In this document: positions 43,730 through 45,363 of the stretch, one piece after another
Layout: every line of letters begins with the position of its first letter
How positions within the stretch are numbered: position 1 is the first letter of the stretch
Sequence record: PQ330092
Reading direction: 5' to 3' (one strand)
DNA length: 64,000 bases
Source of the DNA: Escherichia phage JP4
The notes under the pieces: model-generated
What the model saw: the letters and a program-made list of their open reading frames with translations, nothing else
Database searches by the model: none
Told to the model about the DNA's origin: nothing
Made by a program: the position numbers and the translations under genes

Positions 43730-43933
43730 ATGCAAAAGATTAATACGATAACATTAAATGCATTACAGGATTCATTATTAGATAGTATTAAGATGTATTA
43801 CAATATACATTTGAAGGGTGGTATTGATAATTACGATTATTATTTGAGTTTAATTACATTTGAGCACCTTTCAGTACAGGACAGGATTTTACATCCTACA
43901 AATCCTAGGTATCCATCGATAGGTAAATTATGA
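43730..43933 (+). CDS. Hypothetical small protein (67 aa)
   Basis: ORF after 150-bp gap; SD GAGAAG; ATGA overlap with next gene. Confidence 0.5.
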   Translation: MQKINTITLNALQDSLLDSIKMYYNIHLKGGIDNYDYYLSLITFEHLSVQDRILHPTNPRYPSIGKL

Positions 43934-44484
43934 ATGAGATAGAGTTATTAGCACACAAGATAAGTACAATAATGCTTATCCTCAATAACAACCATCCTAT
44001 ATCGCATATAGATGGAATCCTGAGTCAGAGGACAGGTGGTAGTTTATATTTGTCCATAAACGCAGATATCGCAAGGAAATACATTGATATTGACATTGAT
44101 GTTGAAATCGAATATGATACAACGGGGATTGTTGATGTAGGTGCATTAATCAGTTCAAATCCAGTATCAGCATCCCCATTGACCAAAGGTGTTAGTACAG
44201 GATTCGAAGGGTATTTGTGGTACAATACCAATGATGATTATTTTATATATCAGCATTCCAATACAAATTATGATGAAGACAAATTTCAGTTCATAGACCC
44301 TTATGATGAAGCTGGCGTATTCCAACAATCATTAATCACAAAACCGCATGAGATGATGTATCTAATGTTATTCAGTACAATGCATTTGAATTCATTAATT
44401 AAAGGTTTAAAATTTTATATTCAATTAAATTTAGTCCATGTAGTTTATGATTTATTAATGCAAGGATACAGTTATGAAGTATAA
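43930..44484 (+). CDS. Array paralog, long class (184 aa); near-duplicate of 44556..45062
   Basis: N-terminus MNEIELLAHKIST and C-terminus LMQGYSYEV shared with next copy; FQQSL motif. Confidence 0.7.
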   Translation: MNEIELLAHKISTIMLILNNNHPISHIDGILSQRTGGSLYLSINADIARKYIDIDIDVEIEYDTTGIVDVGALISSNPVSASPLTKGVSTGFEGYLWYNTNDDYFIYQHSNTNYDEDKFQFIDPYDEAGVFQQSLITKPHEMMYLMLFSTMHLNSLIKGLKFYIQLNLVHVVYDLLMQGYSYEV

Positions 44485-44545
44485 AATGATGTATACCCAA
44501 AGATATGATTTATGTTGAATTAGAAGATGATGCATCCATCAATAG
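44474..44545 (+). pseudogene. Truncated, frameshifted remnant of a 45052..45363-like gene
   Basis: ATGAAGTATAAAATGATGTATACCC...GTTGAATTAGAAGATGATG matches the 5' end of 45052..45363 with a 1-nt indel and early stop. Confidence 0.5.
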
Positions 44546-44555
44546 GTAATAATAT

Positions 44556-45062
44556 ATGAATGAGATAGAATTATTAGCACACAAGATTAGTACAGTAATG
44601 CTTATGCTCAAGAATAATCATTCTATGCATAAGTACATTTATATAGGTGATTTACGCATAGAAGATAGATATGATAAATTATCGTTTTTGTTTAAAGATG
44701 AAAGTAATGCAAAAGTTTGTTTTGCAGCATTTGCCCAAGGCAATCCAGAACAAGCATCTCCTGTTATATACGAAAATAGTGAAGGGTATTTGTGGGTCAA
44801 CACAAACGATTATTTCTTTTATGATTTGAAACAAAATGATGAAGTAGAAGCACGAATTGATTTAATTGATATTAGTTCAGATTGTAGTTCTGAATTATTT
44901 CAGAAATCGTTATTATACAGTCCTCGTCAAATACATTATCTAAAGTTATTCAGTTCATTGTACGCGAATCCTTTAATTAAGGGTTTTAAATTTTATATCA
45001 AAATTCCGTACCTTTCAAACGTTTATGATATTTTGATGCAAGGATATAGTTATGAAGTATAA
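44556..45062 (+). CDS. Array paralog, long class (168 aa); near-duplicate of 43930..44484
   Basis: Shared termini with previous copy; ELFQKSLLYSP motif. Confidence 0.7.
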   Translation: MNEIELLAHKISTVMLMLKNNHSMHKYIYIGDLRIEDRYDKLSFLFKDESNAKVCFAAFAQGNPEQASPVIYENSEGYLWVNTNDYFFYDLKQNDEVEARIDLIDISSDCSSELFQKSLLYSPRQIHYLKLFSSLYANPLIKGFKFYIKIPYLSNVYDILMQGYSYEV

Positions 45063-45363
45063 AATGATGTATACCCCAGATATGATTTATGTTGAATTAG
45101 AAGATGATGACGATGGGTGGAATTTGATTTATTCAAGAAGTTCAGGTTGGTACATGGCACATTTAAATGATTCGATAGTTACAGATTATTTTGTAGATTT
45201 CAATACATTATCCGATGAAGAATTGTTCCAACAGCAATTAGTGATTGACACGGGTGGTTATGATGTCTTATTATTAAAAAAGATACAGAAAGCTGTTATT
45301 GATTTTAAGCCCATGATATGGCAAAGGAAATATTATGACCTCGAAGTACCGTACCAGCAATGA
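45052..45363 (+). CDS. Array paralog, long class (103 aa), EELFQQQLVID motif
   Basis: Overlapping start. Confidence 0.65.
   Translation: MKYKMMYTPDMIYVELEDDDDGWNLIYSRSSGWYMAHLNDSIVTDYFVDFNTLSDEELFQQQLVIDTGGYDVLLLKKIQKAVIDFKPMIWQRKYYDLEVPYQQ

What the first reader, a model, noticed from the sequence alone, without database searches (positions are those of the whole stretch)
43930..45363. Recent segmental duplication with a decaying gene remnant inside the array
43930..44484 and 44556..45062 share N-terminus (MNEIELLAHKIST) and C-terminus (LMQGYSYEV). The first copy is followed by a 5' fragment of a 45052..45363-like gene (ATGAAGTATAAAATGATGTATACCC...) carrying a 1-nt indel and early stop, whereas the second copy is followed by the intact gene. 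This captures birth-and-death dynamics of the family.
Basis: seen in the sequence. Interest (0 to 1): 0.45.

Follow-up and report, generated by a model that had tools for sequence, protein, structure and literature searches.

The report
Old gene variants joined, leaving scar
In this giant E. coli phage, two long-diverged versions of one small accessory gene sit side by side, separated by an 82-base decaying leftover of the neighbouring genes; the extra copy occurs in only some related phages and has been passed between them, which is a well-documented but ordinary case of phage genome mosaicism.

Summary
A (43930..44484) and B (44556..45062) are paralogs: BLASTP E=5e-40, 41% aa identity, with nearly identical ends. 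Between them lies a 59-nt copy of the 5' end of gene D (45052..45363). It carries a +1 insertion that stops the frame after 14 codons. A 23-nt copy of the 3' end of upstream gene U follows it. This is a tandem-duplication-type junction scar.

The duplication is not recent. A and B have saturated synonymous divergence (dS about 1.07), and B branches outside the A and C alleles found at this locus in other Asteriusvirus jumbo phages. Yet the scar is about 97% identical to D. So two already diverged alleles were juxtaposed, or a duplicate was later replaced by another allele.

The contiguous scar+B junction is present in 13 of 33 phage records. It is absent from members of the same species. It is 98-100% identical between clades whose flanking genes are only 65-70% identical. 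That indicates lateral spread by homologous recombination at conserved gene-boundary repeats.

The +1 insertion is shared by all seven genomes read from one clade, so it is not a sequencing error. The other clade keeps an in-frame 26-codon stub. The scar collects private lesions while D stays invariant.

The function of the 29-member FQ-motif family remains unknown. This is an ordinary mechanism with a clean example.

The parts
43730..43933 (+). U: upstream 67-aa gene. Its stop overlaps A's start (ATGA). Its last ~20 nt are the source of the u' piece of the scar.
   Evidence: ORF list. 100% conserved in PBECO4-type relatives and 64-70% in other clades.
43930..44484 (+). A: 184-aa member of PHROG 19795. 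It is the resident allele at this locus, and the only copy in single-copy relatives of the window's type such as PBECO4, 121Q, CRJP21, SD-15 and UE-S1 (ph0011/Ecwhy_1 carry the C allele instead, A4-type phages carry B'). It is the most polymorphic gene among near-identical genomes.
   Evidence: 23 variable sites in 544 nt within group 1.
43911..44000 (+). Left conserved block: 19 nt upstream plus the first 71 nt of A. It repeats at 44534..44626 with 87% identity.
44359..44532 (+). Right conserved block R1: the C-terminal codons of A plus the d' remnant. It repeats as R2 at 44937..45109 with 82.6% identity. It is the inferred handle for homologous recombination.
   Evidence: breakpoint positions read.
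44474..44532 (+). d': 59-nt remnant of the 5' end of D. It carries a +1 insertion shared by its clade and a window-specific C>A at 44499. The stub ORF is 44474..44518 (14 codons).
44533..44555 (+). u': 23-nt remnant of the 3' end of U, including the AGG Shine-Dalgarno-like motif. It now serves as the upstream region of B.
   Evidence: The junction is the same in all 14 sequences read that carry it, apart from one base at its first position (C in group 1, T in group 2) and a single substitution in CMSTMSU.
44556..45062 (+). B: 168-aa diverged paralog/allele (PHROG 19795). It is present in 13 of 33 phage records. It is invariant within group 1 and 98-99% nt identical across clades.
44937..45109 (+). 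R2: second copy of the boundary block, made of B's C-terminal codons plus the 5' end of the intact D.
45052..45363 (+). D: intact 103-aa downstream gene (PHROG 33987) and a weak member of the FQ-motif superfamily. It is the parent of the d' remnant.
   Evidence: Its 5' end is identical in all group-1 genomes.

Best explanation
The window comes from an Asteriusvirus, a Rak2-like jumbo coliphage.

**How the junction formed.** At this locus an illegitimate (unequal) recombination joined position about +66 of gene D to about 23 nt before the end of gene U. The result is U-A-[d'u' scar]-B-D. A and B were not fresh duplicates. They are anciently diverged alleles of one hypervariable accessory gene. 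Two routes fit this:
- the crossover happened between two co-infecting phages that carried different alleles; or
- a same-allele duplication was followed by replacement of one copy through the conserved N- and C-terminal coding blocks.

**How the cassette moves.** The scar+B cassette is flanked by direct repeats of about 90-180 nt. These repeats are the C-terminal codons ...LMQGYSYEV overlapping the ATGAAGTATAAAATG start of D. Homologous recombination in mixed infections can therefore add the cassette to single-copy genomes or delete it. This explains three observations:
- its patchy distribution;
- its near-identity across clades with very different flanks;
- its association with two different upstream alleles, A and C.

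**Fate of the scar.** The scar is non-functional DNA apart from supplying B's ribosome-binding region. It is decaying by frameshift, a 6-nt slippage deletion and private substitutions or duplications.

**Shown versus inferred.** Shown: the architecture, the ages, the distribution, the mosaic identity profile and the decay of the scar. Inferred: the exact order of events, recombination as the spreading mechanism, and any function.

**Function.** The gene family is a 29-member, FQ-motif, non-virion family next to the terminal repeat. It most likely encodes early accessory or host-interaction proteins. That assignment is low-confidence.
For: **Architecture**
-.

**Age**
- dS(A,B)=1.07, against 1 mismatch plus 1 indel in 59 nt of d'.
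- B is sister to A plus C in a tree rooted on paralog E.

**B exists alone elsewhere**
- Phage A4, nine further contigs carrying its exact B' protein and one Logan contig (L015, B 93% identical) carry U-X-B'-D with no A.

**Polymorphism**
- The contiguous junction is in 13 of 33 records.
- slurp01 has it and PBECO4 lacks it, although both are filed under species Asteriusvirus PBECO4.
- fEgEco12 has it and Ecwhy_1 (97% ANI, PMC13070987) lacks it.

**Lateral exchange**
- Window vs EcMJ/WPEC3/fEgEco12 nt identity: U 68%, A 65%, scar 92-96%, B 98-100%, D 69-73%.
- dS(B)=0.016 vs dS(A/C)=1.25.
- In that clade the scar is of the PBECO4/A4 D-type and the u' piece of the UES1/PBECO4 U-type. Both differ from the clade's own D and U.

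**Scar decay**
- The +1 insertion and the 6-nt deletion are shared by the clade.
- Private lesions occur in the window (C>A), ELP-22 (ATG>TTG) and BF17 (12-nt duplication), while D's 5' end is invariant (Fisher p=0.007).

**Recombination machinery**
- Asteriusvirus phages encode a RecA-like recombinase (PMC11895373).
Against: - The postulated parent haplotype U*-B-D, with B directly after an intact U, was not found.
- The data cannot separate a heteroallelic unequal crossover from a same-allele duplication followed by allele replacement.
- In the window's clade the scar resembles the resident D. Local gene conversion could therefore also keep it looking young.
- Between clades the scar differs more than B does. 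My hand count is about 5 substitutions plus 2 indels in ~76 nt for the scar, against 9 in 504 nt for B. So scar and B may not share one transfer history.
- dN/dS of B is near 1 but rests on few changes, so selection on B is not demonstrated.
- No expression or functional data were available.
Confidence: 0.78

Rival explanations
1. One reading: a recent in-situ tandem duplication of A together with the start of D, after which the second copy diverged very quickly and the extra D fragment decayed.
For: The junction has the right form for a tandem duplication. The gene ends and the scar are highly similar. A is highly polymorphic, so fast evolution at this locus is plausible.
Against: Synonymous sites between A and B are saturated: pS 0.70 in the middle, dS 1.07 overall. 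The non-coding scar differs from D by only about 3%. A neutral scar cannot be 20-fold younger than the genes it was duplicated with. B branches outside A plus C. B-type genes exist without A in A4-type phages.
Confidence: 0.05
2. An ancient duplication in the Asteriusvirus ancestor. Ongoing gene conversion or concerted evolution then kept the boundary blocks and the scar similar to their partners. B is conserved by purifying selection. The single-copy genomes are secondary losses through recombination between the direct repeats.
For: Direct repeats of 90-180 nt flank the cassette and would permit both conversion and precise deletion. In the window's clade the scar resembles the resident D. Precise loss cannot be told apart from never having had the cassette.
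Against: In the EcMJ/WPEC3/fEgEco12 clade the scar and the u' piece do not resemble the resident D and U. They resemble those of another clade. B is 98-99% identical, synonymous sites included (dS 0.016), between clades whose flanks have dS above 1. Purifying selection alone does not explain that.
Confidence: 0.14
3. An assembly or sequencing artefact: a collapsed or chimeric repeat, or an erroneous indel.
For: The region is AT-rich and repetitive. One related record (CMSTMSU, flagged UNVERIFIED) shows several frameshifts.
Against: The same junction occurs in 13 independently sequenced phage records and one ENA metagenome contig. The +1 insertion is shared by six genomes.
Confidence: 0.01

Closest known systems
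Tandem gene duplication by unequal or illegitimate recombination, leaving a junction scar (a general mechanism, classically described for phage and bacterial genomes; from my own knowledge)
   Same: Two homologous units in direct orientation. The unit boundaries lie inside the flanking genes. A novel joint fuses the 5' end of the downstream gene to the 3' end of the upstream gene. The resulting direct repeats allow later loss.
   Different: The two units are not near-identical copies. They are alleles with saturated synonymous divergence, so the event juxtaposed pre-existing variants or was followed by allele replacement.
Modular shuffling of accessory early genes in the hyperplastic regions of T4-type phages via short conserved boundary sequences (PeSL cassettes, Arbiol et al. 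2010; cited from memory, not read here)
   Same: Small, non-essential-looking genes of unknown function are exchanged as cassettes between related phages. Exchange is by homologous recombination at short conserved sequences at gene boundaries. This gives patchy presence/absence and sharp identity breakpoints.
   Different: Here the conserved handle is coding sequence: the C-terminal codons overlapping the next gene's start. No promoter plus stem-loop was found at the boundaries. The phage lineage is also different (Rak2-like jumbo phages).
Displaced 'orphan' modules in polymorphic loci such as Rhs/CDI toxin arrays (from my own knowledge)
   Same: A new variant enters by recombination at a conserved handle. 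Variants become stacked in tandem, with truncated leftovers between them.
   Different: No toxin, immunity or any other recognisable domain is present (Pfam gave none). The leftover derives from the neighbouring genes, not from the variable gene itself.
PHROG 19795 (phage protein family of unknown function)
   Same: A, B and the paralog at 45335..45901 all match it over full length, with E=1e-92, 2e-32 and 7e-86.
   Different: The family carries no annotation. Relatives were found only in Asteriusvirus.

Membership tests
Tandem segmental duplication | Two adjacent homologous units in direct orientation | tested here: met
   Unit 43911..44532 vs unit 44534..45109; BLASTP E=5e-40; blastn blocks E=3e-24 and 9e-44.
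Tandem segmental duplication | A novel junction fusing part of the downstream flank to part of the upstream flank | tested here: met
   d' (D nt 1-58 plus 1 extra base) is joined to u' (the last ~20 nt of U) at 44532/44533. The same joint occurs in 13 records.
Recent duplication | Copies near-identical, with low synonymous divergence | tested here: not met
   41% aa identity; dS=1.07; pS 0.70 in the middle and 0.32-0.47 at the ends. B is sister to A plus C.
Gene remnant / pseudogene | Homology to an intact gene, with truncation and a disabling lesion | tested here: met
   59 nt match D's 5' end. Homology ends at the junction. A +1 insertion gives a stop after 14 codons.
Gene remnant / pseudogene | Relaxed constraint relative to the parent gene | tested here: met
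   Three private lesions in 82 nt of scar among six close genomes vs 3 in 1008 nt of U+B+D (p=0.007). D's homologous 59 nt are invariant. The sample is small.
Laterally exchanged cassette (homologous recombination mosaic) | The segment is far more similar between lineages than its flanks, with breakpoints in conserved sequence | tested here: met
   B 98-100% vs flanks 65-73% nt. Breakpoints fall in the scar/boundary block and in B's C-terminal block.
Homing-endonuclease or other self-mobile element | A nuclease, integrase or transposase gene in or next to the inserted segment | tested here: not met
   No Pfam domain in U, A, B, D or five downstream neighbours. PHROG hits are all of unknown function.
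PeSL-type regulatory cassette boundary (T4-type phages) | An early promoter plus stem-loop at the module boundary | tested here: not met
   No promoter or terminator consensus in 44485..44555. The fold of 44460..44575 has z=-0.21. No Rfam hit.
PHROG 19795 | A significant full-length match to the family profile | tested here: met
   A 1.1e-92 (1-184 of 184), B 1.7e-32 (1-168 of 168).

The most novel reading that the evidence does not exclude
The conserved coding block at gene boundaries (…LMQGYSYEV overlapping ATGAAGTATAAAATG) may be a selected recombination handle. It would let Asteriusvirus phages stack and swap allelic cassettes of a 29-member family. That family is non-virion, lies next to the terminal repeat, carries an FQ motif, and would be engaged in a host-range or anti-defence arms race. 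The in-frame 26-codon scar kept in one clade would then serve as a translational-coupling mini-ORF for B. On this reading the locus is a working diversity-generating array rather than an accident.
Probability: 0.12. Interest if true: 0.55.

Novelty: new member of a known kind. Interest (0 to 1): 0.3.

Why it matters
The locus is a compact worked example of how accessory-gene repertoires of jumbo phages change. One junction scar dates the joining event independently of the genes. It shows that 'duplicates' in such arrays can be stacked alleles rather than fresh copies. It also traces lateral movement of a 0.6-kb cassette between phage clades that are only about 65-70% identical in the flanking genes. 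In practical terms, it flags A and B, and the wider FQ-motif family, as candidates for host-interaction functions. A is hypervariable, while B is invariant and spreading. It also warns annotators that the 14-26-codon ORF between A and B is a scar and not a gene.

Tried and rejected
- **Function by sequence.** Pfam gave nothing for nine proteins of the array. PHROGs gave only families of unknown function.
- **Search for the postulated U*-B-D parent or further junction variants.**
  - An exact-pattern scan of IMG/VR gave 0 hits.
  - The metagenome scan gave two unrelated chance hits.
  - A protein-guided scan of IMG/VR gave none.
  - Contexts of the A4-type B' protein were all U-X-B'-D.
- **The scar as a structured RNA or regulatory element.** The fold z-score was -0.21. 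There was no Rfam match and no promoter or terminator consensus.
- **Self-mobile element.** No nuclease, integrase or transposase was found.
- **Literature.** Papers on fEgEco12, Sharanji, CBB and phAPEC6 were searched by keyword (find), not read in full. Those searches found no description of this locus or of the FQ-motif family.
- **One wasted search.** The first literature search was too broad and yielded nothing useful.

Full report
**Source and setting**

The region 43000-46500 matches Escherichia jumbo phages of the genus Asteriusvirus (the Rak2-like group).
- The best matches are ELP-22 and BF17, at 98.5-98.7% identity.
- The genes are small, tightly packed or overlapping, and all on the + strand.
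- The finding lies about 9 kb inside the unique region next to the left direct terminal repeat (see 'Noticed in passing').

**Checking the observation**

- A (43930..44484, 184 aa) and B (44556..45062, 168 aa) are homologous: BLASTP E=5e-40, 41% identity.
- The similarity at the nucleotide level is concentrated in two blocks:
  - 43911-44000 vs 44534-44626, 87% over 93 nt;
  - 44359-44532 vs 44937-45109, 82.6% over 178 nt.
- The second block runs past A's stop codon. Positions 44474..44532 are a copy of the first 58 nt of D (45052..45363), with one mismatch and one extra base. This gives the stub MKYKMMYTQRYDLC*.
- Homology to D ends at 44532.
- The next 23 nt (CATCCATCAATAGGTAATAATAT) copy the 3' end of upstream gene U. 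They match TATCCATCGATAGGTAA in the window and match UE-S1's U exactly.
- The repeated unit therefore starts inside U and ends inside D. The joint d'|u' is a tandem-duplication junction.

**Related genomes**

Thirty-three phage records carry a homolog at this locus. Five haplotypes occur:

| Haplotype | Genomes |
|---|---|
| U-A-D | PBECO4, 121Q, CRJP21, SD-15_S21, UE-S1 read directly (phAPEC6, Sharanji and other single-place records with ~43% identity to B not read) |
| U-A-scar-B-D | window, ELP-22, BF17, EC22.5-2, slurp01, TH47 read directly; ECO103 4-12-1 by junction search only |
| U-C-D (C is an A-like allele, 54% identical to A) | ph0011; Ecwhy_1 by tblastn identity only (locus not read) |
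| U-C-scar-B-D-D2 | vB_Ec-M-J, WPEC3, fEgEco12, Turkey3, CMSTMSU read directly; WPEC5, EC.P1 by junction/tblastn search only; one ENA contig |
| U-X-B'-D (X is an unrelated 116-122-aa signal-peptide protein; no A-type gene) | A4, nine contigs carrying the same B' protein (six read), and one further Logan contig L015 (B 93%) |

- The contiguous junction occurs in exactly 13 of the 33 records.
- Presence and absence both occur within species-level groups:
  - slurp01 has the cassette and PBECO4 lacks it, though both are filed as Asteriusvirus PBECO4;
  - fEgEco12 has it and Ecwhy_1 (97% ANI per PMC13070987) lacks it.

**Age of the copies versus age of the junction**

- Nei-Gojobori estimates give dS(A,B)=1.07.
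- pS is 0.70 in the middle, 0.32 in the N-terminal block and 0.43 in the C-terminal block.
- In a neighbour-joining tree rooted on paralog E (45335..45901), B is sister to A plus C. B therefore separated before the A and C alleles of different clades diverged.
- The non-coding d' remnant, in contrast, differs from D by one substitution and one indel in 59 nt.
- A neutral scar cannot be so much younger than the genes it was duplicated with. So the junction joined alleles that were already diverged, or a same-allele duplicate was later replaced by recombination through the conserved ends.
- The A4-type haplotype shows that B-type genes exist at this locus without A.

**Lateral exchange**

Nucleotide identity between the window and the vB_Ec-M-J/WPEC3/fEgEco12 clade, by segment:

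| Segment | Identity |
|---|---|
| U | 68% |
| A vs C | 65% |
| d' | 92-93% |
| u' | 96% |
| B N-terminal block | 100% |
| B middle | 98-99% |
| B C-terminal block | 92% |
| D | 69-73% |

- dS is 0.016 for B and 1.25 for A/C.
- In that clade the scar is of the PBECO4/A4 D-type (…TATACAAAAGATATGATTTATGTTGAATTAGAAG…). Their own D reads …TATACATTAACATTAATATATGTAGAATTAGAATCC….
- The u' piece is of the PBECO4/UE-S1 U-type and is unlike their own U end.
- The junction therefore formed once, in a PBECO4/UE-S1/A4-like background, and the cassette then moved between clades.
- The breakpoints fall in the boundary block. That block consists of the C-terminal codons …LMQGYSYEV overlapping the next gene's start ATGAAGTATAAAATG. 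It flanks the cassette as direct repeats.
- I infer homologous recombination in mixed infections as the mechanism. These phages encode a RecA-like recombinase (PMC11895373). The same repeats would allow precise loss.
- Between clades the scar differs by about 5 substitutions plus 2 indels in ~76 nt (my hand count). B differs by 9 in 504 nt. The most recent exchange of B may therefore have had its left crossover inside or to the right of the scar, or the scar simply decays faster.

**Decay of the remnant**

- All window-clade genomes that were read share two lesions:
  - the +1 A (ACCCCAAGAT);
  - a junction 6 nt shorter than in the other clade. This is consistent with slippage in GATGATGACGATG, which is my inference.
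- The indel is therefore real and inherited.
- On top of these come private lesions:
  - the window has C>A at 44499;
  - ELP-22 has ATG>TTG at the position equivalent to 44489;
  - BF17 has a 12-nt tandem duplication of ATGAAGTATAAA.
- The homologous 59 nt of the intact D are identical in all of these genomes.
- Excluding the mosaic TH47, variable sites are: U 1 in 200, scar 2 plus the BF17 insertion in 82, B 0 in 496, D 2 in 312. Scar vs U+B+D gives Fisher p=0.007.
- In the other clade the scar is still an in-frame 26-codon ORF (MKYKMLYTKDMIYVELEVNDDVSINR*) that ends 9 nt before B's ATG.
- Removing the frameshift would therefore not give an intact paralog.
- The scar shows no RNA-structure signal (z=-0.21), no Rfam match and no promoter or terminator consensus.
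- Its u' part carries the AGG motif upstream of B's start.

**What the genes are**

- A, B and E belong to PHROG 19795. D belongs to PHROG 33987. Both families are of unknown function.
- Pfam finds nothing.
- A profile built from 28 sequences hits 29 + strand ORFs between 41464 and 62428 at E<=1e-3. Fifteen of these were in the model.
- An FQ dipeptide is invariant across the alignment, within the motif EE-x-[YF]-FQ-x-S-[LT]-[VI].
- Sequence relatives of B were found only in Asteriusvirus.
- The AlphaFold2 model of B has pLDDT 70.8 and pTM 0.70. It consists of an N-terminal helix, an eight-strand beta region and three C-terminal helices.
- In phAPEC6 the orthologous array is gp417c-gp466c. None of these gene products appears among the 62 virion proteins found by mass spectrometry (PMC7247149).
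- In the related phage CBB the region next to the terminal repeat is proposed to hold early host-takeover genes (PMC5259590).
- My inference, at low confidence, is that these are non-structural and probably early accessory proteins.
- Within the window's clade, A is the most polymorphic gene (23 variable sites in 544 nt) and B is invariant. B vs A4's B' has dN/dS of 0.86. This pattern is compatible with diversifying selection or relaxed constraint, but it is not a test of either.

**Verdict**

The word 'recent' applies to the junction and to the spread of B, not to the A/B split. The mechanism is unequal recombination followed by homologous exchange and decay. This is standard phage mosaicism and is unusually well resolved here. 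Interest is modest.

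Noticed in passing
window 1..14905 and 20115..35019: An exact 14,905-nt direct repeat at an offset of 20,114 nt. Window position 14906 aligns to base 1 of phages CRJP21, fEgEco12 and E9.1. Asteriusvirus genomes have ~20-21.5-kb direct terminal repeats (PMC13070987, PMC11895373). The window therefore appears to run from the right terminal repeat straight into the left one, by record wrap-around or a concatemer-like join. This implies a 20,114-bp terminal repeat.
   Followed up: partly
window 41464..62428: An array of 29 + strand ORFs (about 100-210 aa) belongs to one superfamily. It has an invariant FQ dipeptide (EE-x-[YF]-FQ-x-S-[LT]-[VI]), no Pfam domain and no structural neighbour outside Rak2-like jumbo phages. 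Its function is unknown.
   Followed up: partly
window 35117..43223: A second array of very small overlapping ORFs (about 65-95 aa). Several share an LLGT-x2-Q-[EQD] motif, for example at 38571, 38831, 41009, 42936 and also 56017. The array also shows internal nucleotide paralogy, such as 38240-38465 vs 38509-38734 at 77%.
   Followed up: no
window 43930..44484 (gene A): Among otherwise near-identical genomes, A is a polymorphism hot spot: 23 variable sites in 544 nt. These include a 6-nt indel at 44089-44094 and a cluster at 44175-44193. The adjacent B has none in 496 nt.
   Followed up: partly
L003 2376..3025, L009 2652..3301, L013 2297..2955 (vB_Ec-M-J, WPEC3, fEgEco12): These phages carry two tandem D-like genes downstream of B, where the window has one. 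This is a further copy-number difference in the same array.
   Followed up: no
L011 1444..1794 (phage A4), L015 2635..2994: A4-type phages have an unrelated 116-122-aa protein with an N-terminal signal-peptide-like sequence in the position of A. It ends 6 nt before the B-type gene, and U is shortened at its C-terminus.
   Followed up: partly
L006 (phage TH47) 1023..1196 vs 1208..2638: TH47 is mosaic at this locus. Its U is of the 121Q/CRJP21 type (about 68% nt identity to the window), while A, scar, B and D are 97-100% window-type. This places another recombination breakpoint at the U/A boundary.
   Followed up: partly
window 46702..46768: A terminator-like hairpin (46702-46723 plus a T-run) is followed 17 nt later by an 11/12 sigma-70-like promoter with an extended -10 TG (46740-46768). 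This is the only such pair in 41-48.5 kb, and it sits in one of the few intergenic gaps of the array.
   Followed up: no
L001 1351..1785 (PBECO4), L017 425..859 (BF17), L010 2854..3291 (UE-S1): The deposited annotations start the A gene about 120 nt downstream of the conserved ATG (MNEIELLAHK…) that other records use. These are probably mis-called starts.
   Followed up: no
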